This document shows positions 21,239 to 49,447 of a DNA stretch of 64,000 bases, piece by piece. Origin of the DNA: Candidatus Woesearchaeota archaeon. GTDB lineage: Archaea; Nanobdellota; Nanobdellia; Woesearchaeales; GW2011-AR4. Positions within the stretch are counted from its first letter, which is position 1. Each line of letters begins with the position of its first letter. The notes under the pieces are model-generated. The model searched no databases. It saw only the letters and a list, made by a program, of their open reading frames with translations, and was not told where the DNA came from. Location: positions 17,031 through 81,030 of the forward strand of contig JACPJP010000012.1 in the NCBI GenBank assembly GCA_016187495.1, given 5' to 3'. Position numbers and translations under genes: made by a program.

Positions 21239-21240
21239 TA

Positions 21241-25628: not shown

Positions 25629-25760
25629 CGGCAATTTTACTGCTCGCTTAATAATCATAATAAAACTATTGTTATGATTAGGCGAGGCAAAATTTATTGG
25701 CAGGAAAAATTTTGCCGAGCAGTAAAATTCGGCTGAGCGTAGCGAAGCCAAATTGAAATT
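25629..25760 (+). ncRNA. conserved structured intergenic element, copy B (nested hairpins)
   Basis: Outer 14-bp stem aattttactgctcg (25633-25646) / cgagcagtaaaatt (25716-25729) encloses an inner hairpin ggcaaaattt/aaaattttgcc (25687-25715). The core 25681-25738 is ~85% identical to 11701-11752. Confidence 0.4.
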
Positions 25761-25873
25761 TAATAAAAAATCAATTTCAAAAGGCAGAATAAATTTAATT
25801 AATTTCCCCTTACTAAATAGCCCTTTAAAAAGACAAGATTTAAAAAGTTCTTGCTCATTCTTGATAGTGTAAA

Positions 25874-26851: not shown

Positions 26852-26852
26852 T

Positions 26853-36389: not shown

Positions 36390-37340
36390 CTAATGAGTCT
36401 TATACCAGTCTATAGTTTTTCCTATTCCCAGTTCCAGGGAAACTTTAGGGCTAAAGCCAAGAATTCTTTTTGCCTTTTCTATGCTTGGAACCCTTATGTT
36501 GACTTCAGGATACTTTAACTCCTTGAATTCTATTTTTGACTTTGAATTTGATATCCTTTTTACAGTTTCAGCAGTCTGCAGGGTAGTGGACGTCGCTTCA
36601 GGATTGCCTATATTAAAGACTTCGCCTTCTGACTTATCAGTTTCGAGTATTTTTTCAACAGCGTCAACAGCATCATCAACATAGCACCAAGACCTTATCT
36701 GGCTTCCAGGTTCGTGTATTATAATGGGCTCGTTTTTCAATGCCCTGACAATAAAGTTATGTATTGCGCCTTCTCCTATCTGCCTGGGTCCATAGACATT
36801 AAACGGCCTTACAGAAGTAAAATTGATGCCATATTCCCTTGAATAGCTGTCAGCAAGAAACTCAGAAGCAAGCTTTGACATCGCATATACCCATCTTGGC
36901 TTTCCTATCGGACCTAAAGTGGTCATGCCCGCTTCGTCTGCTTGGTAGACATTTGGACCATAGACTTCACTTGTTGAGAATACAATAAACCTTTTGATAT
37001 CTTTTTTCCTGCATGCTTCCAATGCATTGTAGCTCCCAAATAAGTTTATCTTTAATGTCGTAGAGGGCTTGCTTACAACAGTGGAAACCCCAGCTATCGC
37101 AGCCATATGGATGAAAACGTCTATCTCATCTATGCCTTTTTCCAGCGCATCAATATCAAGCACATCCCCCTTAATTAATTTAAGGTTTTTATTGTCCTTG
37201 TTTTTGCTGTATTCAAGGGCATTCCTGCTTAATGTATCAAATACTATAACCTCATTCTTGTCTATTATCTTGTCTATAAGATGGCTTCCTATAAAACCGG
37301 CTCCTCCGGTTATGAAAATTTTCTTTCCTTTAAGGGTCAT
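36390..37340 (-). CDS. NAD-dependent nucleotide-sugar epimerase/dehydratase (UDP-glucuronate decarboxylase/UXS-like)
   Basis: 'IFITGGAGFIGSHL', catalytic YxxxK (YAMSKLASE); sits immediately downstream of a UDP-sugar 6-dehydrogenase. Confidence 0.78.
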   Translation of the reverse strand: MTLKGKKIFITGGAGFIGSHLIDKIIDKNEVIVFDTLSRNALEYSKNKDNKNLKLIKGDVLDIDALEKGIDEIDVFIHMAAIAGVSTVVSKPSTTLKINLFGSYNALEACRKKDIKRFIVFSTSEVYGPNVYQADEAGMTTLGPIGKPRWVYAMSKLASEFLADSYSREYGINFTSVRPFNVYGPRQIGEGAIHNFIVRALKNEPIIIHEPGSQIRSWCYVDDAVDAVEKILETDKSEGEVFNIGNPEATSTTLQTAETVKRISNSKSKIEFKELKYPEVNIRVPSIEKAKRILGFSPKVSLELGIGKTIDWYKTH

Positions 37341-38527
37341 TTTAGCATGTTTTTTACATCAACAACCTTATTTTTAATTTTCATTAATTTGCTTTTGTAT
37401 TCTGGCAATTTGTTCATAACCATTATAGCATCCATTTTTCCGAAATCGTTTAAATACTTTACATTAAAATTATTCTCAATTTCTTCTTTTGAATACAATG
37501 GATCTAGTCCATAGACATCATATCCATTCTTCTTCAGCAAGCTTATCATTGCAATTGACCTTGAATACGCCTTTTCCTTTACCCCTTCCCTATAGCTTAG
37601 GCCAATAACCCCTATTTTTGCATTCACTTTTTTTCCAACAATATTTTTTATCTTTTTAAAATAATAATTAATCATATCGTCATTTAATTCCCTTGCAGTT
37701 TTTATTAATGGAACGTCAAGTTCATTGATTAAAAACCATGGATAAACACCAATGCAATGCCCACCGACATTTCCAGGCTCTAAAATATTGCAGTACTGGT
37801 GCTTTGCAGCCTCTTTCATCTCCCAGAAATTGACATTATAATGCTCTGCAACCTTGTGCAATTCATTAGCCAAGGCTATATTGGCATCCCTATAGACGCC
37901 TTCTGCAACTTTTGCAAGTTCTGCAGTCCTTGCGTTGCTTACCTTTACTGGCTTTGAAAATTTTTTATAAACTTCAAATGCCTTTTCCGTGCTTTCCTTG
38001 TTTATTCCGCCTACAAGCTTCGGGAATTCTTTGTAGCGGGAGATTGAATAGCCAGTCATAATGCGTTCAGGGCTGTAGGCAAGGTAAAAGTCAATTCCTG
38101 CTTTCAATTTAGAGTTTCTTTCAAGCGTATTTTTTACTAGGTTTTCCGTGGTTCCTACAGGAACTGTAGTTTCAAGAACAACTATATCCTTTTTCTTCAA
38201 TCCTTTTGACAGCGATTCCAGGGCTTTTTTAATTATGGAAAAATCTGGCTTTTTGTTTTCGTCAATGAACAACGGCACAATGACAATATGGACATTACAC
38301 TGCTTTGCAGCACCGATTGCATCACTAGTTGCCTTAAGTTTTTTGTTTCCATGCTTTTTTATAAGCTCTTTAAGCCCGGGCTCTTCTTCTATTGGGTTAA
38401 TGCCATTGTCTATCATATCAACTTTATTTTTATCTAAATCAACTCCAAGTACACCAATTCCTTTGTCTGCTATTACTGCTGCAAGAGGCAAACCTGCTTT
38501 TCCAAGGCCTATAACACTTATTTTCAT
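37337..38527 (-). CDS. nucleotide-sugar 6-dehydrogenase (UDP-glucose/UDP-ManNAc dehydrogenase family)
   Basis: 'MKISVIGLGKAGLPLA' NAD motif, catalytic Cys region 'GGHCIGVYP'. Confidence 0.85.
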   Translation of the reverse strand: MKISVIGLGKAGLPLAAVIADKGIGVLGVDLDKNKVDMIDNGINPIEEEPGLKELIKKHGNKKLKATSDAIGAAKQCNVHIVIVPLFIDENKKPDFSIIKKALESLSKGLKKKDIVVLETTVPVGTTENLVKNTLERNSKLKAGIDFYLAYSPERIMTGYSISRYKEFPKLVGGINKESTEKAFEVYKKFSKPVKVSNARTAELAKVAEGVYRDANIALANELHKVAEHYNVNFWEMKEAAKHQYCNILEPGNVGGHCIGVYPWFLINELDVPLIKTARELNDDMINYYFKKIKNIVGKKVNAKIGVIGLSYREGVKEKAYSRSIAMISLLKKNGYDVYGLDPLYSKEEIENNFNVKYLNDFGKMDAIMVMNKLPEYKSKLMKIKNKVVDVKNMLK

Positions 38528-39519
38528 AGGTTCATTACCTCATTCTTTCTTGAGGATTCCAAAAACTTCTGGGCTATTTTAAGAGTTTCTAAACCATCCT
38601 CGCCTCTAACAGGAGGTTCTTTATTCTTTTTAATGCATTCAACAAAAGCTTCCAGCTCGTTTTTCAGAGGTTCGCTTTTCTTTATTTCTATCTTTATTTT
38701 TTTTCCCTCCTTGCCTTTTATGAATGCATCATTGTAATTAACAGATTTTGCTGCAAATTCCTTCTCGTAGAAATAAAGCTCCTGCGTAAGGTAATTGGCA
38801 AGAAACATACCCCTTTCCCCTGTCACTTTTATCTGTCTAACTTTTTTTGGAGTAAGCCAGTTAGCGCTTATAACCCCTAACACATTGTTATCAAACCTTA
38901 TAGTCCCTATAAGCAGGTCTTCATGCGAGGAGTGGAATCTTTGCGCGGTTTCTGCATATACCCTCTTGACTTTCGAATCTATCAGATATTCAAGCACATA
39001 GATTTCATGTATTGCTAAATCTATTATCACCCCTACATCTATTATGCGCTGCGGAAAGAGGCTTAGGCGCTGGCAGTGCACCTGCAGTATGTTCCCAAGC
39101 TCATTGTTTTTTATCCTTTTTTTCAGCTCAACGACAACAGGATTAAACTGCTCTATATGGCCCACCATTAATTTTACCTCGTTTTTTTGAGCTGCGTCTA
39201 TAACTTCTCCAGCTTCTTGCGTTGTTGTTGCAATAGGTTTTTCCATCAAAATGTTTATTTTGTTTTTTATTATGTCCAAAGCTACACTTTTGTGCAATTT
39301 AGTTGGAACACATATAGAGACAGCATCAAGCTTTTCTTTATTTAACATTTCTTTATAGCTTTTGTAGTATTTTGCATTGAAATCGTCAGCAACTTCTTTT
39401 GATTCGTTACTGACATCACATACTGCTACTAATTCTACACCTTTAATGCTGGAATATATCCTTGCGTGGTTCTTTCCCATTGAGCCGGCGCCTATTACAG
39501 CGACATTAAGATTTTCCAT
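38524..39519 (-). CDS. Gfo/Idh/MocA-family NAD-dependent oxidoreductase (sugar 3-dehydrogenase, WbpB-like)
   Basis: 'VAVIGAGSMGKNHAR' N-terminal Rossmann fold and MocA-type C-terminal domain. Confidence 0.82.
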   Translation of the reverse strand: MENLNVAVIGAGSMGKNHARIYSSIKGVELVAVCDVSNESKEVADDFNAKYYKSYKEMLNKEKLDAVSICVPTKLHKSVALDIIKNKINILMEKPIATTTQEAGEVIDAAQKNEVKLMVGHIEQFNPVVVELKKRIKNNELGNILQVHCQRLSLFPQRIIDVGVIIDLAIHEIYVLEYLIDSKVKRVYAETAQRFHSSHEDLLIGTIRFDNNVLGVISANWLTPKKVRQIKVTGERGMFLANYLTQELYFYEKEFAAKSVNYNDAFIKGKEGKKIKIEIKKSEPLKNELEAFVECIKKNKEPPVRGEDGLETLKIAQKFLESSRKNEVMNL

Positions 39520-39534
39520 TTTAGCCCATTACTT

Positions 39535-40635
39535 TTATTCCAATTCCTCGAATGCATTAATTATATAATCCAACTGCTCTTTTGTAAGGTTGGGGTGAAC
39601 TGGTAACGATATTACCTCATTGCTTAATTTCTCTGCTATTGGAAAATCACCTTCCTTGTAGCCGAATTTTTTAAAGTGGGGCAATAAATGCAGAGGTTTT
39701 GGATAATAGATTCCAGTCCCTATGCCCTTTTTGTTCAAGTGTTCATTTAACTCGTCCCTGCTCAGCTTGAAATCTTCCAAAACCCTCATTGTATACTGAT
39801 GGAATACATGGCTCCCATCCTTTTTAACATCCGGGACTTTTATACCACTTATTTTACCAAGGTTTTCGCTCAAATAAGAGGCATTCTCAATTCTTTTTTT
39901 TGTTATAACACTTATTTTCTTTAATTGCTCTAATAGGATTGCGGCGCTTATGTCTGTTGCCCTGTAGTTGTATCCTAATCCTCTATACTCATAAGAAGTC
40001 ATTTTTGAGCGGCCATGCTGCCTGAAGAGCTTGGCATTCTCAGCATACTCTTCGCTATTTGTTGTGAGCATGCCACCTTCTCCTGATGTGATGTTTTTTG
40101 TCCCGTAGAACGAGAACGCAGATATATTTCCAAAATTCCCTGCTTTTTTCCCATTTAGTTCTGCATCAACAGATTGACATGCATCTTCTACAACTATCAG
40201 GTTATTATCCTCAGCAATTTTACCGATCTTATCATATTTACATAGTTTTCCATACAAATCAACTGTAACTATAGCTTTAGTTTTTTTATTTATCCTTTCC
40301 TGTATTTTTTCCGGGTCTATATTGAACATTTCCTCGTCAATGTCTACAAAACCAGGTTTAGCCTGCTGCATAAGTATTGTGTTAGCGGTTGCTATAAATG
40401 TAAATGGGGTTGTAACGACTTCATCATTTTTTTTTATTCCAGCAACATGCAATGAGGTATGCAATGCTGCTGTACCGCTGTTTACAGCTACAGCATATTT
40501 TGTTCCGCATAATCTAGCAAATTTCTCTTCCAGTTCCCTTACTTTCGGCCCTTGTGCAATTGTCCCTGACTTTAGCACTTCAGAAACGGCTTTTATTTCA
40601 TTATCATCAAGAAAAGGCTTTGCTATCGGTATCAT
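39535..40635 (-). CDS. DegT/DnrJ/EryC1/StrS-family PLP-dependent sugar aminotransferase
   Basis: 366 aa; conserved 'SFYGTKNITSGEGG' PLP-lysine region. Confidence 0.88.
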   Translation of the reverse strand: MIPIAKPFLDDNEIKAVSEVLKSGTIAQGPKVRELEEKFARLCGTKYAVAVNSGTAALHTSLHVAGIKKNDEVVTTPFTFIATANTILMQQAKPGFVDIDEEMFNIDPEKIQERINKKTKAIVTVDLYGKLCKYDKIGKIAEDNNLIVVEDACQSVDAELNGKKAGNFGNISAFSFYGTKNITSGEGGMLTTNSEEYAENAKLFRQHGRSKMTSYEYRGLGYNYRATDISAAILLEQLKKISVITKKRIENASYLSENLGKISGIKVPDVKKDGSHVFHQYTMRVLEDFKLSRDELNEHLNKKGIGTGIYYPKPLHLLPHFKKFGYKEGDFPIAEKLSNEVISLPVHPNLTKEQLDYIINAFEELE

Positions 40636-40636
40636 T

Positions 40637-41338
40637 TTACTTTAATTTTGAATAGTTTCTTTTATATTCTCCAAATTTTTTAAACAAATCTTTTTCCAGA
40701 TCAGGTGGAACAGCCTTAAAATAATTTCCTTCCTCAACTTCCTCAAAATCCCTTTTTCCGCTTCCAAGTATTTTCAACGATTCAATCATCAGGTCTTGCT
40801 CTTTGTTCTGGATTCTTAGAAAGATATCGAGGAGCGTATCGTCCTCATATACATCTATCTCTTCTTTTACTATCAGCCGTCCTTTATCCACCTCCCTGCT
40901 TATTAGGTGACATGATACGCCCTGCTTGAAGTCCTTTAAAATGGCCCATTTGATGTTGTCCAAGCCGCGATTTTGCGGCAATATAGCGGGGTGCAAATTA
41001 AGCACCCCAATTTTGAACTGTTTTATTATATTCTCTTTCAATATTCTCGCTCCTGCTATAATCCCGACGTCAAGACTATACTTTTTAATTAAGTCTTCAC
41101 ATTCACTGCCGTTGTGCTTGACAACATAGTAAGGTATGCCTAGATTTTTCGCTATTTCCATTGGATGCATATAGTTCAAGCCTTTAGGCGCTATCCTTAT
41201 CTTAGACTGGTAAAAATGAAGTTCAACTGGGTCTGCTGCAAAGATACATGAGATTTTATAACCATGCATAAACAAATTCAGCAGCGTTTCCTGAGTCTTT
41301 TTGTGCTTGAAGTTATAAGCAAAAACCCCTATTTTCAT
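40637..41338 (-). CDS. sugar N-formyltransferase (formyl_trans_N family)
   Basis: 'NLHPAILPQNRGLD' catalytic HxSLLPxxRG-type motif; 233 aa; adjacent to the aminotransferase. Confidence 0.78.
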   Translation of the reverse strand: MKIGVFAYNFKHKKTQETLLNLFMHGYKISCIFAADPVELHFYQSKIRIAPKGLNYMHPMEIAKNLGIPYYVVKHNGSECEDLIKKYSLDVGIIAGARILKENIIKQFKIGVLNLHPAILPQNRGLDNIKWAILKDFKQGVSCHLISREVDKGRLIVKEEIDVYEDDTLLDIFLRIQNKEQDLMIESLKILGSGKRDFEEVEEGNYFKAVPPDLEKDLFKKFGEYKRNYSKLK

Positions 41339-42551: not shown

Positions 42552-43685
42552 TTGGCTATAGGAAACTATTTAAATAAATTTGGGTTTCTTGAAGGCATGA
42601 AAATTTTAAGTGTAGTTGGGACAAGACCTAATTTCATGAAGATTGCTCCACTGGTAAACGAGTTCAAGAAGCATAATGTAGACCATGTACTTGTACATAC
42701 AGGCCAGCATTATGATAAGGAAATGTATAAACTGTTTTTTGACGACCTTAAGATACCTAAACCGGATTTTGACCTTGGAGTTGGCTCTGGAACAAGAGAA
42801 CAGCAGATTAAATCGATAAAGGCAAAGTTAACACCTATACTCAAAAAAGAGGAGCCAGACGCGGTTATGGTGGTTGGCGATGTAAATTCAACTCTTGCCG
42901 CTGCGCAAACTGCAAGTAACCTTGGCATTAAGGTAGCGCATGTCGAAGCAGGTTTAAGGAGCTTTGACAATACAATGCCTGAAGAGCTTAACAGAATCGA
43001 AACGGATAAAATAAGCGATTTTTTGTTTACTACGGAAAAAAGTGGAGACATCAATCTGGAAAAAGAAGGAATTAGTAAAGATAATATTTTTTTTGTCGGC
43101 AATGTAATGATAGACACCTTATTAGACCACAAAGAAAAAGCCGAGCAATCAAAAATACTGAAAAAATTAATTTTAGAAAAAAAAGATTACTGCACTTTGA
43201 CGTTGCATAGGCCAAGCAACGTAGACAACAAGGTAGATTTTGAAAATATTCTTTCTATTTTAGTGGAAATCCAAGAAAAAATAAGAGTAGTCTTCCCAGT
43301 CCATCCGAGAGCAAGAAAAAACATGCACTCCTTTAATCTTGACGGTAAAATAAAAAATATGAAAAATTTGATAATTACTGAGCCGCTGGGCTACCTGGAT
43401 TTTTTATGCTTAATGTCAAACAGCAAATTTGTGCTTACCGACTCTGGTGGCATTCAGGAGGAAACCACTGTTTTAGGAATTCCTTGCATTACACTGAGGA
43501 AAAATACGGAGAGGCCTGTAACTGTCGAACAGGGGACTAATTTATTGGTAAGCATTGACAATGGAAAGGTTGTGAGCAAAGCCATGGAAGTTATAGGCAA
43601 TAAAATTAAATTGAAAAACAAAATACCTGAGCTGTGGGATGGCATGGCTGCTGAAAGAATAGTTAAAATATTGCTAAATAACTGA
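42552..43685 (+). CDS. wecB: UDP-N-acetylglucosamine 2-epimerase (non-hydrolysing, WecB family)
   Basis: 377 aa; 'GTRPNFMKIAPL', 'VVGDVNSTLAAA', 'DSGGIQEE' motifs. Confidence 0.88.
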   Translation: MAIGNYLNKFGFLEGMKILSVVGTRPNFMKIAPLVNEFKKHNVDHVLVHTGQHYDKEMYKLFFDDLKIPKPDFDLGVGSGTREQQIKSIKAKLTPILKKEEPDAVMVVGDVNSTLAAAQTASNLGIKVAHVEAGLRSFDNTMPEELNRIETDKISDFLFTTEKSGDINLEKEGISKDNIFFVGNVMIDTLLDHKEKAEQSKILKKLILEKKDYCTLTLHRPSNVDNKVDFENILSILVEIQEKIRVVFPVHPRARKNMHSFNLDGKIKNMKNLIITEPLGYLDFLCLMSNSKFVLTDSGGIQEETTVLGIPCITLRKNTERPVTVEQGTNLLVSIDNGKVVSKAMEVIGNKIKLKNKIPELWDGMAAERIVKILLNN

Positions 43686-43691
43686 TTAACA

Positions 43692-44066
43692 ATGCAAGAA
43701 CTCAAAAATTTAGGAGTCGGGACTGACATAGAAGATATAGGAAGGTTTAGGCGTTTAGATAAGAATAACGACAACATTTTTTTGAATAAAATATTTACCG
43801 AAAAAGAGCTCGACTACAGCTTTTCAAAAGCAAAGCCTTACCAGCATCTGGCTGCAAGATACGCTGGCAAAGAGGCTATTATAAAGGCATTGAGTAGCAT
43901 TGGAAAAAATGGAATAGATTACAAAGAAATTGAAATATTAAATGATGATAATGGAATTCCAAAAGTGAATTTGAATTATGATGGCAGCTTAAAGGTTTGC
44001 ATCAGCCTGTCGCATTCCAACGACAGGGCTTTGGCATTTGCTCTAATATTAAGGCAAAATGAGTAA
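43692..44066 (+). CDS. acpS: holo-[acyl-carrier-protein] synthase (AcpS-type 4'-phosphopantetheinyl transferase)
   Basis: 124 aa; 'GVGTDIEDIGRF' and 'AARYAGKEAIIKAL' AcpS motifs. Confidence 0.8.
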   Translation: MQELKNLGVGTDIEDIGRFRRLDKNNDNIFLNKIFTEKELDYSFSKAKPYQHLAARYAGKEAIIKALSSIGKNGIDYKEIEILNDDNGIPKVNLNYDGSLKVCISLSHSNDRALAFALILRQNE

Positions 44067-45882
44067 AATAAATGAAAAGGAAAAATTAAGCATATCTGAC
44101 TATTTTAATCTGTATAGAAAATTGAAGAATTCTAAGAATTTTGGAAAAAATAAAAAATCCATAAAAATAGCACTGCTCTCCAGCTTCACTGCCAATGGAA
44201 TAAAAGAGGTTTTATTTGTAAAATGCCATGAATTAGGCATATATTGCGATTTCTATGTCGGCAAATATAGCCGGTATTCCCAGGAGATATTGGATAAAAA
44301 TAGTGGATTGCATAAATTTGAGCCTGATTTAATAATCTGGTTTGTAGATATCATGTCAATTTTTGGCAGTAATTACTTTCTTCCTTATAGTCTCAATGAA
44401 AACCAGAGGAAAAAACTTATTGAAGAAAAACTAAATGAAATAAGATCCTTGGCAGAGAAACTAAAATCAGACTCCGATGCAAAAATACTGCTGCACAATT
44501 TTGAAGTCCCGCTATTTTCGCCATTAGGGATACTTGAAAGTAAGCAGAAATTCGGCTTCATCGAGTCTGTAGAAGCACTAAACTCTAAGTTAAGGGATAC
44601 TTTCAAAAATGATGATCAGGTTTTTGTTTTTGATTATAATGCTTTCTGCTCTAAAATCGGGAAGGATAATGCAATGGACTACAAGATGTATTATTTGGGT
44701 GATATAAAATTTGACCTTCAGTATCTCCCGGAGCTTTGCAGCGAGTATATGGTTTATATAAAGCCCATGGTGTCCATTACGAAAAAATGCATCGTCTTAG
44801 ATTTAGACAATACCTTATGGGGCGGCATAATAGGGGAAGATGGTTTAGAGGGCATAAAGCTTGGACCTACACCAGAAGGAAGACCTTTTATGGAGTTTCA
44901 GCAATATTTGCTTTCTCTCTTCAATCGTGGGGTAATACTGGCAATAAATAGCAGGAACAATTACGATGATGCTATGGAAGTTTTTAAGAAGCACCCTAAT
45001 ATGGTCCTAAAAGAGAACAATTTTGCTGCTATGCAGATAAACTGGAATGACAAGATAGCAAACATGAAGGCTATTGCAGAGGAGTTAAATATAGGCACAG
45101 ATAGCTTAGTGTTTATTGACGATGATAAATCCAACAGGCAGATGATAAGGGAGGCTTTTCCTGAGATTAATGTTGTTGAGATGCCAGAAGATCCATCTCT
45201 TTATCTGAAGACCTTAATGGACATGAATGACTTTAATATATTGCAGATAACTGAAGAGGACAAGAAAAGGGGGCGTATGTATGTACAGCAAAGGAAGCGC
45301 ACAGAATTCCAGAAAAGCACTTCAAACCTAACAGAGTTCCTTAAGAGCCTTAATATGGTTGTTACCGCGGAAAGAGCTAATAAGTTCAACATTCCAAGAA
45401 TAGCCCAGCTTACGCAGAAAACAAACCAGTTCAACATGACAACTAAAAGATATATGGAGGAAGACATTAAGAAATTTTCTGAAGACAAAAATTACCATGT
45501 TTTTTCCGTCAGAGTGGAAGACAAGTTTGGGGATAACGGAATTACCGGAGCGGCAATAATAAAAAAAGGCAAGGACATATGGAGCATAGGCACTTTTTTG
45601 TTGAGCTGCAGGATCGTAGGGAGAAAAGTTGAAGAAACGCTGCTTGCTTACATAGCAAAAGAAGCGAAAAAAGCAGGAGCGAAGAGGATAACAGCAGACT
45701 TTATTCCAACCGAGAAAAATTCAGTTGCTAATGATTTTTACAAAAACAGCGGGTTTAGCTTGGTAAAAAAAGAGAAGAGCAAGGAAGTTTGGGAATATAG
45801 CCTTAAGAATGATTACAAATTTCCGAATTTTATTAAGTTTGTCGAAAAGCAGATGAATTCGCTTAAAAATGCAAAATCTTAA
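44059..45882 (+). CDS. FkbH-like protein (HAD-IIIC phosphatase domain + C-terminal GNAT-like domain; candidate glyceryl-ACP loader)
   Basis: 'CIVLDLDNTLWGGIIGEDG' HAD motif I and 'VFIDDD' motif; C-terminal GNAT-like fold; N-terminal ~230-aa domain common in FkbH-family proteins. Confidence 0.7.
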   Translation: MSKINEKEKLSISDYFNLYRKLKNSKNFGKNKKSIKIALLSSFTANGIKEVLFVKCHELGIYCDFYVGKYSRYSQEILDKNSGLHKFEPDLIIWFVDIMSIFGSNYFLPYSLNENQRKKLIEEKLNEIRSLAEKLKSDSDAKILLHNFEVPLFSPLGILESKQKFGFIESVEALNSKLRDTFKNDDQVFVFDYNAFCSKIGKDNAMDYKMYYLGDIKFDLQYLPELCSEYMVYIKPMVSITKKCIVLDLDNTLWGGIIGEDGLEGIKLGPTPEGRPFMEFQQYLLSLFNRGVILAINSRNNYDDAMEVFKKHPNMVLKENNFAAMQINWNDKIANMKAIAEELNIGTDSLVFIDDDKSNRQMIREAFPEINVVEMPEDPSLYLKTLMDMNDFNILQITEEDKKRGRMYVQQRKRTEFQKSTSNLTEFLKSLNMVVTAERANKFNIPRIAQLTQKTNQFNMTTKRYMEEDIKKFSEDKNYHVFSVRVEDKFGDNGITGAAIIKKGKDIWSIGTFLLSCRIVGRKVEETLLAYIAKEAKKAGAKRITADFIPTEKNSVANDFYKNSGFSLVKKEKSKEVWEYSLKNDYKFPNFIKFVEKQMNSLKNAKS

Positions 45883-46093
45883 AAAAATTGTGGCAAAGGT
45901 ATTGGATATTGATGAAATCAAGGTAAATGACAGCCTTACCATGAGCAATGCGGAGCAGTGGGACTCTTTTAACCACTTGCTTCTCATAAGCGAGATTGAA
46001 AAAGAACTTGGAATAACATTTTTCATACAGGAAGTTGAGAAGATAAAATCTTTTAAGGATTTAAGAGAAATAGTTTTAAGCAAGGGCAGATAA
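45869..46093 (+). CDS. acyl carrier protein (PP-binding)
   Basis: 74 aa, acidic four-helix profile, Ser in 'EQWDSFNHL' at the phosphopantetheine attachment position. Confidence 0.7.
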   Translation: MQNLKKIVAKVLDIDEIKVNDSLTMSNAEQWDSFNHLLLISEIEKELGITFFIQEVEKIKSFKDLREIVLSKGR

Positions 46094-46094
46094 A

Positions 46095-46523
46095 ATGAAG
46101 CATAGAAACAAGGCAAAATCATTTTCAGATGTAAACATAGGGGAAAGGGCTGAATTTGAGATTATTATAGATGAAAATGTGCATAATAACTTCTCAAAAA
46201 TATCCGGAGATTATAGCCCTATACATTGCGATGATGCATTTTCGGAAAAAACAAAATTCGGCAAGAGGATAGGGTACGCATTTTTGCTTACATCATTTCT
46301 TTCCAGGCTTTATGGCGAGTATTTGCCGGGAGGAAGCTCTGTGTGCATAAAGCAGGAAGCAAATTTTTTAAGACCATATTTCATAGGCGACAAAATAAAG
46401 GTCGTAGGGGAAGTTGTAAACAAAATAAAATCAACAAAATTTATTGAAATTAAATCGGAAATGTACAGAAATAGCAAAGAATGCATTTTTAGAGGCAATG
46501 GAACAGTCCAAATACTATACTGA
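46095..46523 (+). CDS. MaoC-like (R)-specific hydratase/dehydratase (hotdog fold)
   Basis: 'DYSPIHCDDAFSEKTKFGKRIGYAF' MaoC catalytic motif. Confidence 0.75.
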   Translation: MKHRNKAKSFSDVNIGERAEFEIIIDENVHNNFSKISGDYSPIHCDDAFSEKTKFGKRIGYAFLLTSFLSRLYGEYLPGGSSVCIKQEANFLRPYFIGDKIKVVGEVVNKIKSTKFIEIKSEMYRNSKECIFRGNGTVQILY

Positions 46524-47418
46524 AAAAAAGGCATACGAACCTTTATACGAGCATGAAGACCAAAAGATTTACCCTTCTCATTTTGTTAAGGCACTAAAAG
46601 ACGCAGGCATAAATGAGGGGGATACAGTTTTTGTGCATTCAAGAGTTTCCGCTTTTGGCAAGCTGCTTGCACTAGATAAACATTTTCTTATGCAGTCTTT
46701 AATAGGCTCAATTAAAGATGCTGTAGGAATAGATGGAACGATAATCATGCCCACTTTTTCCTACAGCTTCGACAAGAATGAGGCTTTTGATGCTGATAAG
46801 ACTCAATCCACGGTGGGTTCTTTGACGGAGTTTTTCAGAAAGCAAGATGACGTAGTTCGTACAAGGCATCCGAACCATTCAGTTGCCATATGGGGCGCAA
46901 ATAAATATGATTTATCAAATATAGGGGAAGATACATTTGACGAGAACTCCATTTTTGGAAAATTGCATAAGCTTAATAGCAAAATAATATTTTTTGGAGC
47001 ACCTTTTCAGTCATGCACCTTTATCCATTATATCGAGCAGATGCATCAGGTTCCGTATAGACATATGAAGAAGTTTAGTGGAAAGATTACAGTTAATGGC
47101 AATGAGCATGATGAAGAAATAACCTTCTACAACAAGTATAGCGTTTTTTTCAGCTCATTTTCAAGGCTTGAAAAGCATCTGCTAGAAAAAGGAATTATGA
47201 AAAATGCAAAAGTCGGCGCGGGCAATATCATGGCAGTAAAGTGCAAGGACTTGTTTGACGAAGGCTACAATCTTCTGGATAAGGACATTTTTTTCTTCTT
47301 GAAGAACAAGCCAATAATATTTGATCTGTTCAATAAACTTTCTTATCCGTTTTTGAGATATTTTCCTTTGCCTATTAAAATTCTAGATAAATTAGTCTCA
47401 AAATTCTTATTAAGATAG
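46498..47418 (+). CDS. AAC(3)-family N-acyltransferase-like protein (candidate aminosugar N-acyltransferase)
   Basis: 'GDTVFVHSRVSAFGKL…GTIIMPTFS' matches the aminoglycoside 3-N-acetyltransferase fold signature. Start chosen at ATG 46498; the longer ORF from 46444 overlaps maoC. Confidence 0.65.
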   Translation: MEQSKYYTEKKAYEPLYEHEDQKIYPSHFVKALKDAGINEGDTVFVHSRVSAFGKLLALDKHFLMQSLIGSIKDAVGIDGTIIMPTFSYSFDKNEAFDADKTQSTVGSLTEFFRKQDDVVRTRHPNHSVAIWGANKYDLSNIGEDTFDENSIFGKLHKLNSKIIFFGAPFQSCTFIHYIEQMHQVPYRHMKKFSGKITVNGNEHDEEITFYNKYSVFFSSFSRLEKHLLEKGIMKNAKVGAGNIMAVKCKDLFDEGYNLLDKDIFFFLKNKPIIFDLFNKLSYPFLRYFPLPIKILDKLVSKFLLR

Positions 47419-48585
47419 CTTGTCTGCTATTCCCCAATCATCTTCCAGCATTAAAGAATCTATAAAGAATTTTGCAGCCCAGTTCGGATAGCAGAAGGGA
47501 GCGTACCAGCCATATATCGGGAAAGCGCCCTTTATGCCACCCCTTATGCCTTTATTTAAGGATTTTATGTCTTGAGCAGATTTCATATATTGATTTGTTT
47601 TTTTTGCAGCATCAAAATAGGTTTTTTCTTTGGTAAGATAATATAACCTGAGCCATATTATCGAGGTTTGCGAGTTTCCGGTCAGGCAGCTCCACGATAC
47701 AGAACTTTTCCAGTCTTTGTCAAAGCTTCCTGGCAATGAACTATTTTTTCTTTGCTTTTTTAATAAGGTATCTGCAGCTCTTTTTGCAGCGTTAATATAT
47801 TTTTTATTTTTTAGATTTATACCTACTTCAAGAATTCCTTGCATTGAATATGCGATTGTATGCAGCAAAGGCTCTTGCTTTTCATGGAATGCATTATGCT
47901 TAAACCAGCCATTCTCCTGCTGCTTTAATGCCCATTCTATGTTTTTTATTGCAGCTTTTTTGTATTTGATGTTTTTTGTTATTTCATTCACTTTTAATAA
48001 TGCCCATGCAGTCCTTGTATTGTATGTGTGCACTTGGTTAAGGTAGGTAAATTTGTCCCAGCAGCCGTTCTTGTTTTGTATTTTTACAAGCCAGTTTGCG
48101 GCCTTAATTGAGGCATTTTTGTATTTTTCATTTTTTGTTTCCTGATATGCCCTAACCATTCCAAATATTACTTGGCCAGTGTTGAATACTATTGGCAGTT
48201 CTTTTCCATTTTTTTCTCCGCCTGGGAAAGCACCTTCTTCTAATTGCTTTGTAAGCTCCCAGTCTGCCATCCTAATTGCGCTTTCTTTGATTTTTTCGCC
48301 TTTAGCCTTATGATAATAATTGAACATAGTCGGGATTATGTAGCCGGTGGTTTCAGAATAAGATGAATGCCAGCCCTGATACAGTGAATACATTGCAGAA
48401 ACTCCACCATCATTGTTGGCTTTTTGGGCATTGAGTAGCCAATTAATAGCTGCCTTTATGTGCATCTCATTGCTGTAATCCTTATTTTTAAAATTTAGCG
48501 AGTCTTTTATTGCTTCTTTTAATAGGTAATAAGGAGAGCCTTTTGTTATTAATGATACAAAATACTTTAGATATTTTGATGCCAT
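47410..48585 (-). CDS. Trp-rich alpha/alpha-toroid repeat protein (prenyltransferase/terpene-cyclase-like or glycoside-hydrolase-like)
   Basis: 391 aa; periodic aromatic-rich repeats (…QNKNGCWDKF…, …QQENGWFKHN…) resembling (alpha/alpha)6 barrel repeats. Confidence 0.4.
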   Translation of the reverse strand: MASKYLKYFVSLITKGSPYYLLKEAIKDSLNFKNKDYSNEMHIKAAINWLLNAQKANNDGGVSAMYSLYQGWHSSYSETTGYIIPTMFNYYHKAKGEKIKESAIRMADWELTKQLEEGAFPGGEKNGKELPIVFNTGQVIFGMVRAYQETKNEKYKNASIKAANWLVKIQNKNGCWDKFTYLNQVHTYNTRTAWALLKVNEITKNIKYKKAAIKNIEWALKQQENGWFKHNAFHEKQEPLLHTIAYSMQGILEVGINLKNKKYINAAKRAADTLLKKQRKNSSLPGSFDKDWKSSVSWSCLTGNSQTSIIWLRLYYLTKEKTYFDAAKKTNQYMKSAQDIKSLNKGIRGGIKGAFPIYGWYAPFCYPNWAAKFFIDSLMLEDDWGIADKLS

Positions 48586-48586: not shown

Positions 48587-49447
48587 CTAATTACCTTTCT
48601 TTTTGGCTAAAACTATAATCCTTTCACCTTTTTCTCCCGAAAACGGTTTATAGTTATTCATGCCGAAAAGCATGAGGAAAAACATCATAAGGTAACTTTT
48701 ATGAATCTCGGAATAAGAGCCTAATTTCAATATATTGTAGCCGCTTCTTTCGAACAATTTTCGCATCGAATCTAATGTAAAACTATAAATATGGGGGTGA
48801 TAATTCAAAGAATTATGTAAAATTTTCTTATTCTCGCAGTTAGGAACTTCCAGAAATATTATACCGCCTCTGTTCAAGTTATTTTTTATTTTTTTTAGAA
48901 ATAAGTCTGGCCTTATAAGATGCTCAAAGACGTGGCACAGGTAGATCACACCGAATTTTTCCGTTATCTTTACCTTTTCAACCAAACCGTTAATGCACAC
49001 TTCTTTTTTGAATAATTTGTTGACAATTTTTGTGTTGTTCTTGTCTGGCTCGATGCCTCTAACATCAAACCCCATTTTCGAGAAAAACAGCATGAAATCT
49101 CCCTTTGCGCATCCTATATCCAGCAACTTTTCCGATTTTGATGGAGAGGCACATTTCTTTATCACATTATAGTGCCACACCTGCTGCAACGGCTCTGTTT
49201 TAACCTTTCTTAAGATTTTTATTATTATGTTCAGGAACTTTCTTTTCTCATCCCACCTTCTCCTTATTGTGTTCCAATAGGTTTTTTTATAATACTCATC
49301 GCATTTTCTTTCCATTCCTTTATCATCGGAGTAGAAGAAGCATAATCCGCATTTATTGCACCTGTAAACTGGGCACTCAAGGAAAGATTTTTTCTGATAT
49401 ATCCTTATATTCTTATCTGAGCCGCATGAAATGCAGGTTTTTGCCAT
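48587..49447 (-). CDS. class I SAM-dependent methyltransferase with N-terminal Zn ribbon
   Basis: 'CISCG…CNKCG' ribbon; 'LLDIGCAKGDFM' motif I. Confidence 0.75.
   Translation of the reverse strand: MAKTCISCGSDKNIRIYQKKSFLECPVYRCNKCGLCFFYSDDKGMERKCDEYYKKTYWNTIRRRWDEKRKFLNIIIKILRKVKTEPLQQVWHYNVIKKCASPSKSEKLLDIGCAKGDFMLFFSKMGFDVRGIEPDKNNTKIVNKLFKKEVCINGLVEKVKITEKFGVIYLCHVFEHLIRPDLFLKKIKNNLNRGGIIFLEVPNCENKKILHNSLNYHPHIYSFTLDSMRKLFERSGYNILKLGSYSEIHKSYLMMFFLMLFGMNNYKPFSGEKGERIIVLAKKKGN

What the first reader, a model, noticed from the sequence alone, without database searches (positions are those of the whole stretch)
43692..47418. ACP-dependent acyl-decoration cassette inside an archaeal glycan island (AcpS + FkbH-like + ACP + MaoC + AAC(3)-like acyltransferase)
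Five consecutive co-directional genes, translationally coupled or nearly so, encode a holo-ACP synthase, an FkbH-family loader, a discrete acyl carrier protein, a MaoC hotdog dehydratase and an AAC(3)-fold N-acyltransferase. By analogy to polyketide chemistry, FkbH enzymes transfer a glyceryl unit from 1,3-bisphosphoglycerate to a carrier protein. The natural reading is: prime the ACP (AcpS), load glyceryl-S-ACP (FkbH), dehydrate or modify it (MaoC), then transfer the acyl group to the amino group of a sugar made by the flanking DegT aminotransferase pathways (AAC(3)-like). Archaea are generally considered to lack ACP/AcpS systems, and a dedicated carrier-protein route for decorating a surface glycan has not, to my knowledge, been described for them.
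Basis: partly seen in the sequence, partly recalled or inferred. Interest (0 to 1): 0.85.

Follow-up and report, generated by a model that had tools for sequence, protein, structure and literature searches.

The report
Carrier-protein sugar-acylation cassette in an archaeon
A DPANN archaeon carries a real five-gene cassette (AcpS, FkbH-type loader, acyl carrier protein, MaoC hotdog, AAC(3)-fold acyltransferase) that most likely puts a glycerate-derived three-carbon acyl group on a surface sugar. The same cassette is shared with bacteria and is common in other archaea, so it is an overlooked module rather than a one-off oddity.

Summary
Five overlapping or abutting co-directional genes at 43692-47418 pass curated profile thresholds for ACPS, FkbH (TIGR01686), PP-binding, MaoC and Antibiotic_NAT, and their catalytic residues are conserved.

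The host is archaeal. RadB and aMBF1 equivalogs lie on the same contig, codon usage is uniform, and NCBI assigns the contig to Candidatus Woesearchaeota.

The cassette is not unique:
- GenBank already names all five proteins.
- An Omnitrophota bacterium has the same gene order.
- Of the best 80 FkbH loci among GTDB species genomes, 43 are archaeal (DPANN and many Thaumarchaeota) and 37 bacterial.
- Woesearchaeal sequences interleave with CPR and Omnitrophota sequences, which implies inter-domain transfer.
- Gene fusions (MaoC::NAT, NAT::DUF4910, NAT::methyltransferase) tie the parts into one pathway.

The closest system with a known product is the Campylobacter jejuni flagellin locus. It has an fkbH-domain gene (cj1302), an N-acetyltransferase (cj1296/7) and cj1295, and it makes N-(2,3-di-O-methylglyceroyl)-pseudaminic acid.

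The most likely mechanism is AcpS priming, FkbH loading of glyceryl-S-ACP, MaoC dehydration, and N-acyl transfer. The exact acyl group and the acceptor remain inferred.

The papers I could search still say archaea lack ACPs, so the archaeal spread is under-recognised. This is a new variant of a known kind, of moderate interest.

The parts
42569..42576 (+). TTTAAATA, a candidate archaeal TATA box. It lies 21 nt before the ATG (42597) of the first gene of the operon, in the 50-nt divergent intergenic region.
   Evidence: Read directly from the sequence. Weak evidence, because the genome is 63% A+T.
42597..43685 (+). Non-hydrolysing UDP-GlcNAc 2-epimerase (WecB/WbpI type). It is the first gene of the operon and ends 6 nt before AcpS.
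   Evidence: Epimerase_2 scores 357 bits and TIGR00236 wecB 348 vs a cut-off of 210. The same position upstream of AcpS is seen in L008, L009, L010, L012 and L016.
43692..44066 (+). Group I 4'-phosphopantetheinyl transferase (AcpS type, 124 aa). It would prime the cassette ACP.
   Evidence: PF01648 scores 62.4 vs 25 and TIGR00556 73.2 vs 45.35. The acpS equivalog TIGR00516 scores 59.2 vs 59.8, just below its cut-off. B. subtilis AcpS 1f80 matches at E = 4.5e-11. D12 and K60-E61 are conserved in at least 95% of 44 homologues.
44059..45882 (+). FkbH-family loader (607 aa) with three parts: FkbH_N domain, HAD-IIIC phosphatase domain, and a C-terminal transferase domain.
   Evidence: TIGR01686 scores 319.8 vs 146.65. 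The N-terminal and HAD parts match PDB 3slr (BF1531) at E = 3.9e-54. D248-x-D250 and the S516-C517-R518 motif are invariant in A1. Some homologues carry precomputed GNAT Pfam hits in the C-terminal part.
45869..46093 (+). Discrete acyl carrier protein (74 aa). The predicted phosphopantetheine site is Ser33 in the W-D-S-F motif.
   Evidence: PP-binding scores 22.3 vs 20.8. W31, S33 and E44 are invariant in 31 homologues. The profile hits 48 solved ACPs, best at E = 1.6e-13. It lies directly downstream of FkbH in 75 of 80 loci.
46095..46523 (+). MaoC-type hotdog (R)-hydratase/dehydratase (142 aa).
   Evidence: PF01575 scores 53 vs 27. The best solved matches are human 3-hydroxyacyl-thioester dehydratase 2 (3ir3) and PhaJ (5cpg, 1iq6). 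G38, D39 and H44 are conserved in at least 95% of 60 homologues. It occurs fused to the NAT in L044, L045, L079 and L083.
46498..47418 (+). AAC(3)-fold N-acyltransferase (306 aa from ATG 46498; the longest ORF starts at TTG 46444). This is the proposed acyl-ACP:amino-sugar N-acyltransferase.
   Evidence: Antibiotic_NAT scores 152.7 vs 25. The AAC_3 equivalog scores 88 vs 270, so it is not a resistance AAC(3). PDB matches are YokD 2nyg and FrbF 3sma. Relatives have it fused to MaoC, DUF4910 or a methyltransferase.
47410..48585 (-). Terpene-cyclase-like (alpha/alpha)6 protein, convergent with the NAT with a 9-nt overlap. It is a conserved companion in the DPANN-type cassette only. Its role is unknown.
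   Evidence: Weak SQHop_cyclase_C, Pec_lyase and C5-epim_C hits. It is present in 6 DPANN-type loci. No solved sequence relative was found.
48587..49447 (-). SAM-dependent methyltransferase (Methyltransf_23). It could O-methylate the acyl group or the sugar.
   Evidence: PF13489 scores 73.7 bits. It is conserved next to the cyclase-like gene in L008, L009 and L017. A related methyltransferase domain is fused to the NAT in the Omnitrophota cassette.
39535..40635 (-). DegT-family aminotransferase in a WbpA/B/E-like operon (37337-41338). It is one candidate supplier of the acceptor amine.
   Evidence: DegT scores 421.7 bits, with a UDP-sugar dehydrogenase and a GFO/MocA oxidoreductase upstream and a formyltransferase-like gene downstream. 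Its link to the cassette is inferred only.

Best explanation
The cassette is a self-contained, carrier-protein-dependent route for decorating a surface glycan in a Woesearchaeota (DPANN) archaeon.

Proposed steps:
1. AcpS transfers 4'-phosphopantetheine from CoA to Ser33 of the 74-aa ACP.
2. The FkbH-family enzyme takes a glycolytic C3 unit (D-1,3-bisphosphoglycerate in every characterised FkbH), dephosphorylates it in its HAD domain, and delivers glyceryl to the ACP thiol through its C-terminal transferase domain.
3. The MaoC hotdog dehydrates the 2,3-dihydroxyacyl thioester. This gives 2-hydroxyacryloyl-ACP, the enol form of pyruvoyl-ACP. The neighbouring methyltransferase may act before this step.
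4. The AAC(3)-fold enzyme transfers the C3 acyl group from the ACP pantetheine arm to an amino group of a nucleotide-activated amino sugar made in the surrounding island.

What is shown: the domain identities, the conserved catalytic residues, the operon structure, the archaeal host, and the conserved synteny and fusions.

What is inferred: the substrate (1,3-BPG), the direction and product of the MaoC step, ACP rather than CoA as the NAT's donor, and the acceptor.

The cassette is a mobile inter-domain module shared with CPR, Omnitrophota and other bacteria. It tends to carry its own AcpS in archaea and in CPR, Omnitrophota and some proteobacterial hosts. That archaea and CPR lack a housekeeping PPTase comes from the literature and my inference, not from a test here.
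For: - Profile hits are above curated cut-offs for all five proteins, and solved-structure relatives agree.
- Catalytic residues are conserved: AcpS D12/E61; FkbH D248-x-D250 and C517; ACP S33; MaoC D39/H44.
- The genes overlap or abut.
- The same order, AcpS-FkbH-ACP-MaoC-(SDR)-NAT, occurs in Omnitrophota and in other Woesearchaeota/Nanoarchaeota loci.
- ACP follows FkbH in 75 of 80 loci, and MaoC is present in 59.
- Fusions MaoC::NAT, NAT::DUF4910, NAT::methyltransferase and MaoC::SDR occur in relatives.
- Characterised FkbH enzymes make glyceryl-ACP from 1,3-BPG (PMC7489565; PMC5318452).
- C. jejuni makes 5-N-(2,3-di-O-methylglyceroyl)-pseudaminic acid from a locus holding cj1295, the cj1296/7 N-acetyltransferase and the fkbH-domain gene cj1302. 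Strains with a defective cj1302 or lacking cj1301 lack the dimethylglyceroyl sugar (PMC3068675; PMC7099621).
- The cassette sits inside a glycan island with glycosyltransferases, a flippase, sugar dehydrogenases, DegT genes and epimerases.
Against: - There is no biochemical evidence for any step in this family outside polyketide FkbH enzymes.
- AAC(3)-fold enzymes characterised so far use acetyl-CoA, not acyl-ACP (my own knowledge).
- Both DegT genes in the window already have an adjacent formyl or hexapeptide acyltransferase, so no spare amine is evident. The same holds in L008.
- The window lacks the DUF4910 (Cj1295-like) gene that accompanies the NAT in 12 bacterial loci.
- Without a reductase, the product of dehydration (a pyruvoyl or 2-hydroxyacryloyl amide) has no glycan precedent known to me.
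- The Pfam ACP score is marginal on its own (22.3 vs 20.8).
Confidence: 0.6

Rival explanations
1. The priming and loading chemistry is the same, but the acyl group does not end up as an amide on a nucleotide amino sugar. It might instead be O-linked to a polysaccharide, or attached to a lipid, a protein or a small molecule, with the AAC(3)-fold enzyme acting on a non-sugar amine.
For: - Nine bacterial relatives place an MBOAT O-acyltransferase after FkbH-ACP-MaoC-SDR.
- The thaumarchaeal versions have no AAC(3)-fold gene at all.
- FrbF, one of the closest solved relatives of the NAT, acylates a phosphonate intermediate rather than a sugar (for the match; the substrate is from my own knowledge).
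- No unassigned sugar amine is evident in the window.
Against: - The window has no MBOAT.
- The NAT is coupled to the cassette and sits in an operon headed by a UDP-GlcNAc 2-epimerase.
- The only relative with a known product gives an N-acyl sugar.
Confidence: 0.15
2. The FkbH homologue loads something other than a glycerate unit, such as another phosphorylated acid, so the acyl group is not derived from glycerate.
For: - The glycan-associated FkbH proteins are uncharacterised.
- They carry an extra FkbH_N domain.
- The only solved relative, 3slr, is annotated as an uncharacterised protein.
Against: - The match to TIGR01686 runs end to end at twice the cut-off.
- The HAD and Cys motifs are invariant.
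- Every characterised FkbH uses 1,3-BPG.
- The C. jejuni product is a glyceric acid derivative.
Confidence: 0.1
3. The ACP and AcpS serve fatty-acid or polyketide-type chain building, working with the FabZ-like, thiolase, SDR and acetyl-CoA carboxylase genes 17-33 kb upstream, rather than glycan decoration.
For: The window encodes acetyl-CoA carboxylase subunits, a FabZ-like dehydratase (101 bits vs a cut-off of 113), two thiolases and a FabG-like SDR.
Against: - The ACP falls far below every AcpP model (27.5 vs 71).
- It belongs to the FkbH-linked W-D-S-F subfamily.
- ACP and AcpS overlap FkbH.
- No FabD, FabF/FabB, FabH or ketosynthase gene is in the window.
- Archaeal fatty-acid synthesis is reported to be ACP-independent.
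Confidence: 0.05
4. The cassette is a non-functional passenger from a recent bacterial transfer, or an artefact of a chimeric or mis-binned contig.
For: - The FkbH tree interleaves Woesearchaeota with Nealsonbacteria and Omnitrophota.
- Some loci labelled Methanosarcinales sit on short contigs and look mis-binned.
Against: - RadB and aMBF1 lie on the same contig.
- Cassette GC is 0.357 against 0.374 for the housekeeping genes, and codon usage correlates at r = 0.945.
- Identical cassette DNA was assembled independently from at least five sequencing runs.
- Synteny is conserved across Woesearchaeota/Nanoarchaeota whose FkbH is 61-69% identical, on contigs up to 382 kb.
- All catalytic residues are intact.
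Confidence: 0.04

Closest known systems
Campylobacter jejuni NCTC 11168 flagellin glycosylation genes cj1295-cj1302, which make 5-N-(2,3-di-O-methylglyceroyl)-pseudaminic acid
   Same: - It has an fkbH-domain gene (cj1302), an N-acetyltransferase gene (cj1296/7) and, in bacterial relatives of the window cassette, an aminopeptidase-like partner of the NAT (DUF4910/DUF2172, plausibly the Cj1295 type).
- The product is a glycerate-derived N-acyl group on an amino sugar.
- Sources: PMC3068675 and PMC7099621; cassette relatives.
   Different: - The host is bacterial and the acceptor is a nonulosonic acid. The window has no NeuB/Pse-type genes.
- The window has no DUF4910 gene. It does have MaoC and an in-cassette AcpS.
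- I could not compare the C. jejuni sequences directly. That cj1296/7 has the AAC(3) fold and that cj1299 is an ACP are from my memory only.
- The enzymology of the C. jejuni locus is also uncharacterised.
FkbH/OzmB-type glyceryl-ACP loading in polyketide pathways (methoxymalonyl-ACP, tetronates, FkbH loading modules)
   Same: - An FkbH-family enzyme is paired with a discrete ACP.
- It makes glyceryl-S-ACP from 1,3-bisphosphoglycerate (PMC7489565; PMC5318452).
- FkbH loading modules are listed as giving D-lactyl-ACP (PMC7901079). By my recollection these modules pair FkbH with dehydratase and ketoreductase domains, which would parallel the MaoC(+SDR) genes seen here.
   Different: - There is no ketosynthase, FabH-like or PKS gene here.
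- The output is an AAC(3)-fold transferase inside a glycan island.
- The protein carries the extra FkbH_N domain typical of the polysaccharide-locus subfamily (3slr BF1531).
- The dehydratase is a discrete MaoC hotdog, not a PKS DH domain.
Bacterial relatives of the same cassette (for example Omnitrophota L006/L013: AcpS-FkbH-ACP-MaoC-SDR-NAT::methyltransferase-DUF4910)
   Same: Same genes in the same order. Identity to the window proteins is FkbH 66%, AcpS 54%, ACP 47% and NAT 36%.
   Different: - The bacterial version adds an SDR, a methyltransferase fusion and DUF4910.
- The window MaoC belongs to the SDR-less subtype. It is 54% identical to the MaoC half of the Clostridium MaoC::NAT fusion, against 33% to the Omnitrophota MaoC.
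- No member of this cassette family has been characterised.
Carrier-protein-dependent decoration of bacterial envelope polymers: Dlt D-alanylation (DltC plus the MBOAT DltB) and the Vibrio cholerae O1 perosamine N-acylation genes (both from my own knowledge)
   Same: A dedicated small carrier protein delivers a short acyl group to a cell-surface glycopolymer. Nine bacterial relatives of this cassette use an MBOAT as the output enzyme.
   Different: - Loading is by an FkbH/HAD enzyme rather than an adenylating ligase.
- The window has no MBOAT.
- The acyl group is derived from glycerate.
AAC(3) aminoglycoside N-acetyltransferases, YokD and FrbF
   Same: Same fold and family: PF02522 scores 152.7 bits, and 2nyg, 3sma and 7lap are the closest solved relatives.
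   Different: - It scores 88 against 270 for the AAC_3 equivalog model, so it is not a resistance enzyme.
- Its context implies an acyl-ACP donor, and relatives have it fused to MaoC, DUF4910 or a methyltransferase.

Membership tests
AcpS-type (group I) phosphopantetheinyl transferase | An ACPS domain of about 120 aa scoring above the curated thresholds | tested here: met
   PF01648 scores 62.4 vs 25 and TIGR00556 73.2 vs 45.35. The equivalog TIGR00516 scores 59.2 vs 59.8, just below, so this is a divergent AcpS.
AcpS-type (group I) phosphopantetheinyl transferase | Conserved Mg2+/CoA-binding acidic residues (N-terminal Asp and the K-E-A motif Glu) | tested here: met
   D12 and K60-E61 align with B. 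subtilis AcpS 1f80 and are conserved in at least 95% of 44 cassette AcpS sequences.
Acyl carrier protein (PP-binding) | A PP-binding profile match with a conserved serine in the D-S-(L/F) motif | tested here: met
   PF00550 scores 22.3 vs 20.8. S33 is invariant in 31 homologues. The family profile hits 48 solved ACPs with the serine aligned.
Housekeeping fatty-acid-synthesis AcpP | A score above the AcpP equivalog or subfamily cut-offs | tested here: not met
   The best score is NF002148 at 27.5 vs 71. This is a specialised carrier protein, not AcpP.
Acyl carrier protein (PP-binding) | Actual 4'-phosphopantetheinylation | not testable with these tools
   This needs mass spectrometry of the protein after incubation with AcpS and CoA.
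FkbH family (glyceryl-ACP loaders) | An FkbH domain (HAD-IIIC plus the family-specific C-terminal region) above the curated cut-off | tested here: met
   TIGR01686 scores 319.8 vs 146.65, matching model positions 2-321 of 323.
FkbH family (glyceryl-ACP loaders) | HAD motif I (D-x-D-x-T) and a conserved Cys in the C-terminal transferase domain | tested here: met
   D248-L-D250-N-T and S516-C517-R518 are invariant in A1. That this Cys carries the glyceryl intermediate, as described for OzmB, is from my memory and was not tested.
FkbH family (glyceryl-ACP loaders) | A dedicated discrete ACP partner encoded next to it | tested here: met
   The ACP overlaps the FkbH stop codon. An ACP lies within the scan range of FkbH in 75 of 80 loci, directly downstream in nearly all.
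FkbH family (glyceryl-ACP loaders) | Use of D-1,3-bisphosphoglycerate to form glyceryl-S-ACP | not testable with these tools
   Known for characterised members. It needs in vitro reconstitution here.
MaoC / (R)-specific enoyl hydratase hotdog | A MaoC domain with the catalytic Asp/His dyad in the G-D-x-x-P-x-H motif | tested here: met
   PF01575 scores 53 vs 27. G38, D39 and H44 are conserved in at least 95% of 60 homologues. It aligns with HTD2 3ir3 and PhaJ.
AAC(3) aminoglycoside-resistance acetyltransferase | A score above the NCBIfam AAC_3 equivalog cut-off | tested here: not met
   NF033082 scores 88.2 vs 270 and the subtype models are all far below their cut-offs. The protein shares the fold (PF02522, 152.7 bits) but is not a resistance enzyme.
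C. jejuni-type glyceroyl-nonulosonate decoration locus | An FkbH-domain gene together with an N-acyltransferase | tested here: met
   Both are present in the window. cj1302 is described as an fkbH-domain gene and cj1296/7 as an N-acetyltransferase. The sequences were not compared directly.
C. jejuni-type glyceroyl-nonulosonate decoration locus | An aminopeptidase-like Cj1295-type partner | tested here: not met
   No DUF4910/DUF2172 protein is in the window. One is present in 12 bacterial loci and 1 archaeal locus. That DUF4910 equals the Cj1295 family is an inference.
C. jejuni-type glyceroyl-nonulosonate decoration locus | Pseudaminic or legionaminic acid biosynthesis genes as the source of the acceptor | tested here: not met
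   No NeuB/PseI-type synthase or CMP-transferase was found among the window proteins scanned.
Dlt-like carrier protein plus MBOAT O-acylation | An MBOAT next to the carrier protein | tested here: not met
   The window has no MBOAT. One is present in 9 bacterial relatives.

The most novel reading that the evidence does not exclude
A portable AcpS + ACP + FkbH module gives archaea a true 4'-phosphopantetheine carrier-protein pathway dedicated to glycan decoration. It occurs in DPANN archaea and, as an FkbH-ACP-MaoC-AcpS variant, widely in ammonia-oxidising Thaumarchaeota, as well as in CPR bacteria. In the window's version, an AAC(3)-fold enzyme would use acyl-ACP rather than acyl-CoA as donor. 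A MaoC hotdog that occurs fused to this enzyme in some bacteria would convert glyceryl-ACP into a dehydrated C3 acyl group (2-hydroxyacryloyl/pyruvoyl, possibly methylated), giving an N-acyl sugar not yet described. This would contradict published statements that no ACPs are known in archaea.
Probability: 0.4. Interest if true: 0.7.

Novelty: new variant of a known kind. Interest (0 to 1): 0.55.

Why it matters
[quoted passage not shown] The comparative data here point the other way. A dedicated ACP/AcpS pair, always tied to an FkbH loader inside glycan loci, is common in DPANN archaea and Thaumarchaeota (43 of the best 80 species-level loci).

If the cassette is functional:
- It adds a carrier-protein-dependent acylation route to archaeal surface glycobiology.
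- It gives a concrete case of inter-domain sharing of envelope chemistry between DPANN archaea and CPR or Omnitrophota bacteria from the same habitats.
- It would extend the AAC(3) fold to acyl-ACP donors.
- It gives a testable explanation for the poorly understood dimethylglyceroyl modification genes of C. jejuni.
- It warns against reading ACP genes in archaeal MAGs as evidence for bacterial-type fatty-acid synthesis.

Tried and rejected
- Bacterial, chimeric or mis-binned contig: rejected. RadB and aMBF1 equivalogs are on the contig, composition and codon usage are uniform, and independent assemblies agree.
- Aminoglycoside-resistance gene: rejected. The AAC_3 equivalog scores 88 vs 270 and the context is wrong.
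- Housekeeping fatty-acid ACP: rejected. AcpP models score far below their cut-offs and there are no FabD/F/H genes.
- Polyketide or tetronate cluster: rejected. No ketosynthase or FabH-like gene is present.
- tRNA and Rfam scans of the window found nothing.
- Literature searches found no relevant paper in the held library: 'HAD-IIIC' + ACP + polysaccharide gave 0 papers, and FkbH + archaea gave only incidental co-mentions.
- A PDB sequence search for the terpene-cyclase-like neighbour gave no hit. Structure prediction for it was not attempted, because homologues taken from loci cannot be submitted.
- Assigning the acceptor from gene counts failed. The window has two DegT genes but three N-acyl/formyl transferases, and so does L008.
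- Single-linkage clustering of neighbouring ORFs merged the fused families and produced antisense shadow ORFs. Only families later confirmed by Pfam were used.
- The NJ tree is a rough distance tree with no support values. I use it only to show interleaving, not the direction of transfer.
- I did not retrieve the C. jejuni protein sequences, so homology to Cj1295, Cj1296/7 and Cj1302 rests on published descriptions.

Full report
**1. Observation**

- 43692-44066, 124 aa
- 44059-45882, 607 aa
- 45869-46093, 74 aa
- 46095-46523, 142 aa
- an ORF ending at 47418

For the last ORF, the longest reading starts at TTG 46444. Public gene calls start at ATG 46498 and give 306 aa.

The junctions are an 8-nt overlap, a 14-nt overlap, a 1-nt spacer and a 26-nt overlap. 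A sixth gene belongs to the same unit: a WecB-type UDP-GlcNAc 2-epimerase (42597-43685; TIGR00236 348 bits vs 210). It ends 6 nt before AcpS.

The 50-nt divergent intergenic region upstream contains TTTAAATA, 21 nt before the epimerase ATG. This is an archaeal TATA-like box, but it is weak evidence in an A+T-rich genome. Antisense ORFs in the region are short and match no family.

**2. Domain identities**

Scores against curated cut-offs:

| Protein | Model | Score | Cut-off |
|---|---|---|---|
| AcpS | PF01648 | 62.4 | 25 |
| AcpS | TIGR00556 | 73.2 | 45.35 |
| FkbH-like | TIGR01686 | 319.8 | 146.65 |
| FkbH-like | FkbH_N | 53.5 | 27 |
| ACP | PP-binding | 22.3 | 20.8 |
| MaoC | PF01575 | 53 | 27 |
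| NAT | Antibiotic_NAT | 152.7 | 25 |

The ACP call is marginal alone, so I tested it further. ACP ORFs follow FkbH in nearly every related locus and share an invariant W-(D/T/S)-S motif. A profile of 31 of them hits 48 solved acyl carrier proteins (best 2lml, E = 1.6e-13), with Ser33 aligned to the canonical D-S-L serine.

Solved relatives of the other proteins:
- AcpS aligns with B. subtilis AcpS 1f80.
- MaoC aligns with human 3-hydroxyacyl-thioester dehydratase 2 and PhaJ.
- The NAT aligns with YokD, FrbF and AAC(3) enzymes.
- The N-terminal and HAD parts of the FkbH homologue align with the uncharacterised Bacteroides fragilis protein BF1531, 3slr.

Catalytic residues are conserved across the family: AcpS D12 and K60-E61, FkbH D248-x-D250 and S516-C517-R518, ACP S33, and MaoC G38-D39 and H44.

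Two negative membership results matter. The ACP is far below all AcpP models (27.5 vs 71). The NAT is far below the AAC_3 resistance equivalog (88 vs 270). So this is neither a fatty-acid-synthesis ACP nor a resistance gene.

**3. Host**

The exact FkbH protein is in GenBank as 'HAD-IIIC family phosphatase [Candidatus Woesearchaeota archaeon]', on a contig of 150,162 bp. The neighbouring proteins are MBI2523095-MBI2523100. GenBank names them holo-ACP synthase, acyl carrier protein, enoyl-CoA hydratase, aminoglycoside N(3)-acetyltransferase and terpene cyclase/mutase family protein.

Inside the window, a RadB equivalog (TIGR02237, 220 vs 172) and an archaeal MBF1 equivalog (TIGR00270, 133 vs 110) lie 34-38 kb upstream of the cassette. 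GC content is even across the window. Cassette codon usage correlates at r = 0.945 with the housekeeping genes of the window. Identical cassette DNA was assembled independently from at least five sequencing runs.

The refutation condition 'the contig is bacterial' is therefore not met.

**4. How common the cassette is, and where**

A scan of one genome per GTDB species with an FkbH alignment found 368 relatives. Of the best 80 loci:
- 43 carry archaeal titles. These are Woesearchaeota/Nanoarchaeota, a few short contigs labelled Methanosarcinales that may be mis-binned, and 31 Thaumarchaeota, including contigs of 0.4-1.9 Mb.
- 37 carry bacterial titles. These are CPR/Patescibacteria, Omnitrophota, Nitrospirota, Gammaproteobacteria, Planctomycetia, Clostridia and others.

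I annotated their neighbourhoods by phmmer with the window proteins plus three Omnitrophota proteins. Counts are lower bounds because many contigs are short.

| Gene near FkbH | Archaeal loci (of 43) | Bacterial loci (of 37) |
|---|---|---|
| ACP | 41 | 34 |
| MaoC | 34 | 25 |
| AcpS | 27 | 15 |
| AAC(3)-fold NAT | 8 (all DPANN-type) | 12 |
| DUF4910/DUF2172 | 1 | 12 |
| SDR after MaoC | 3 | 18 |

The bacterial loci that carry AcpS are mostly CPR, Omnitrophota and Gammaproteobacteria. It is absent from the Nitrospirota and Clostridia loci. The NAT is usually followed by a DUF4910/DUF2172 aminopeptidase-like gene in bacteria.

An Omnitrophota bacterium has AcpS-FkbH-ACP-MaoC-SDR-NAT::methyltransferase-DUF4910 in the same order as the window. 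Its FkbH is 66% identical and its AcpS 54%.

Thaumarchaeota have a different variant, FkbH-ACP-MaoC-AcpS. A hexapeptide acyltransferase, a GT1 and a DegT are placed divergently next to it. Nine bacterial loci end in an MBOAT.

A rough NJ tree separates a Thaumarchaeota-dominated clade from a mixed clade. In the mixed clade the window groups with other Woesearchaeota, and Nealsonbacteria and Omnitrophota are nested among them. This implies inter-domain transfer. The direction is not resolved.

**5. Evidence that the genes work together**

Pfam confirms fusions in relatives:
- MaoC::Antibiotic_NAT in Clostridium L044, and also in L045, L079 and L083
- Antibiotic_NAT::DUF4910/DUF2172 in L031 and L018
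- Antibiotic_NAT::Methyltransf_23 in L006/L013
- MaoC::SDR in L055

The window MaoC is 54% identical to the MaoC half of the Clostridium fusion but only 30-36% identical to the SDR-associated MaoC proteins. So 'MaoC plus NAT without a reductase' is a recurrent configuration, not a decayed one.

**6. Mechanism**

Step 1, shown by homology only: AcpS converts the apo-ACP to holo-ACP at Ser33.

Step 2, inferred from family membership: FkbH makes glyceryl-S-ACP from 1,3-bisphosphoglycerate. All characterised FkbH enzymes do this (PMC7489565; PMC5318452, citing Dorrestein et al. 2006).

Step 3, inferred: MaoC removes the 3-hydroxyl. This gives 2-hydroxyacryloyl-ACP, the enol form of pyruvoyl-ACP. 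Where an SDR follows, as in many relatives, reduction would give lactyl-ACP. This matches the FkbH loading-module reaction listed as 1,3-BPG to D-lactyl-ACP (PMC7901079). The window has no SDR in the cassette. It has a methyltransferase two genes away on the other strand (48587-49447), which might act on the acyl group or on the sugar.

Step 4, inferred from context and fusions: the AAC(3)-fold enzyme transfers the acyl group to an amine.

The acceptor is unresolved. The island encodes two amino-sugar routes:
- A WbpA/B/E-like route on the minus strand: dehydrogenase 37337-38527, GFO/MocA oxidoreductase 38524-39519, DegT 39535-40635.
- A second DegT at 57955-59064.

Each DegT has its own adjacent formyl or hexapeptide transferase (40637-41338; 59089-59520). 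The related locus L008 shows the same excess of acyltransferases over aminotransferases.

**7. Comparison with what is known**

The closest system with a known product is in C. jejuni NCTC 11168. There, a pseudaminic acid bearing a 5-N-(2,3-di-O-methylglyceroyl) group depends on cj1295, which has an aminopeptidase-like domain. Next to it lies the phase-variable N-acetyltransferase gene cj1296/7 (PMC3068675). The same locus holds the fkbH-domain gene cj1302. Strains in which cj1302 is a pseudogene, or which lack cj1301, lack the dimethylglyceroyl sugars (PMC7099621). That locus looks like a member of the same cassette family, but I could not compare its sequences directly.

The window differs from it in several ways:
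- The host is archaeal.
- It has MaoC and its own AcpS.
- It lacks a DUF4910 gene.
- It lacks nonulosonic acid genes.

Polyketide FkbH/ACP systems share the loading chemistry but not the output. Dlt-type D-alanylation and the V. cholerae O1 perosamine acylation genes (both from my own knowledge) share the idea of a dedicated carrier protein for envelope decoration, but not the loader.

**8. Novelty and interest**

The individual gene names are already in GenBank, and the cassette is shared with bacteria.

On the other hand, the papers I could search say that ACP and ACP synthase are missing from nearly all archaea, or that only a few unrelated species acquired them by transfer (PMC3533463; bioRxiv 2024.07.05.601840). 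[quoted passage not shown] I found no paper linking FkbH to archaea.

The combination of a self-priming ACP module, an FkbH loader, a MaoC hotdog and an AAC(3)-fold transferase has not been characterised biochemically in any organism. I rate it a new variant of a known kind, with interest 0.55. Confidence in the general mechanism is 0.6. Confidence in the exact acyl group and the acceptor is much lower.

Noticed in passing
window 10167-27587: A fatty-acid-like gene set sits in a DPANN archaeon. It comprises an acetyl-CoA carboxylase carboxyltransferase (10167-11669), a biotin carrier protein (11751-12191), a BioY/ECF biotin transporter (12222-15019), BirA (16049-16771, minus strand), a biotin carboxylase (16761-18656, minus strand), a FabZ-like dehydratase (19674-20168; 101 bits vs a cut-off of 113), a DUF362 protein (21241-22692) and a FabG-like SDR (26769-27587). 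Whether it interacts with the cassette ACP is unknown.
   Followed up: partly
window 20181-21238 and 22709-23861: Two thiolase genes are each split into a Thiolase_N ORF and a Thiolase_C_1 ORF in different reading frames. These could be frameshifts, pseudogenes or sequencing errors.
   Followed up: no
window 47410-48585 (minus strand): A terpene-cyclase-like (alpha/alpha)6 protein is convergent with the NAT, with a 9-nt overlap. It is conserved only in the DPANN-type cassettes (6 loci), where the DUF4910 partner of bacterial cassettes is missing. It has no solved sequence relative.
   Followed up: partly
window 37337-41338 (minus strand): A WbpA/WbpB/WbpE-like operon (sugar dehydrogenase, GFO/MocA oxidoreductase, DegT) ends in a 233-aa formyltransferase-like gene. 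The related loci L008 and L020 have a hexapeptide acetyltransferase at that position. This suggests an N-formyl rather than N-acetyl 3-amino uronic acid.
   Followed up: no
L047-L085 (Thaumarchaeota loci, e.g. L065 10001-12400, L074 9298-12400): The thaumarchaeal variant is FkbH-ACP-MaoC-AcpS with no AAC(3)-fold gene. A family of 186-aa hexapeptide acyltransferases recurs just upstream of FkbH (30 loci in the whole set), divergently oriented together with GT1 and DegT in loci such as L074. It is a candidate acyl-ACP-using transferase.
   Followed up: partly
L029 13186-14655 and 8 other bacterial loci: An MBOAT membrane O-acyltransferase follows FkbH-ACP-MaoC-SDR. This suggests a Dlt-like extracytoplasmic O-acylation output for the same acyl-ACP.
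   Followed up: partly
L009-L088 (census): An AcpS is inside the cassette in 27 of 43 archaeal loci and 15 of 37 bacterial loci. The bacterial cases are mostly CPR, Omnitrophota and Gammaproteobacteria, and it is absent from Nitrospirota and Clostridia loci. This partly fits the idea that the module carries its own PPTase where the host lacks fatty-acid synthesis.
   Followed up: partly
L010, L040, L054, L075; L068, L080, L084: Some short contigs labelled Methanosarcinales carry DPANN-type or Thaumarchaeota-type cassettes. Some marine 'bacterial' MAG contigs (Acidiferrobacteraceae, Nitrospina, Chloroflexota) fall inside the thaumarchaeal FkbH clade. These are either mis-binned or further transfers.
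   Followed up: no
window 7925-9301, 33047-34513 (minus strand), 60472-62217: Three PMT_2-family (dolichyl-phosphate-sugar type) membrane glycosyltransferases lie in one 64-kb window, together with a sulfatase (28686-30563) and a flippase-like protein (62256-63161). This points to an elaborate surface glycan.
   Followed up: no
window 55567-56799: A sugar C-methyltransferase (Methyltransf_13/14 domains) lies next to a 4,6-dehydratase-like gene, an FAD oxidoreductase, the second DegT and a hexapeptide transferase. This looks like a branched-chain amino deoxysugar pathway in an archaeon.
   Followed up: no
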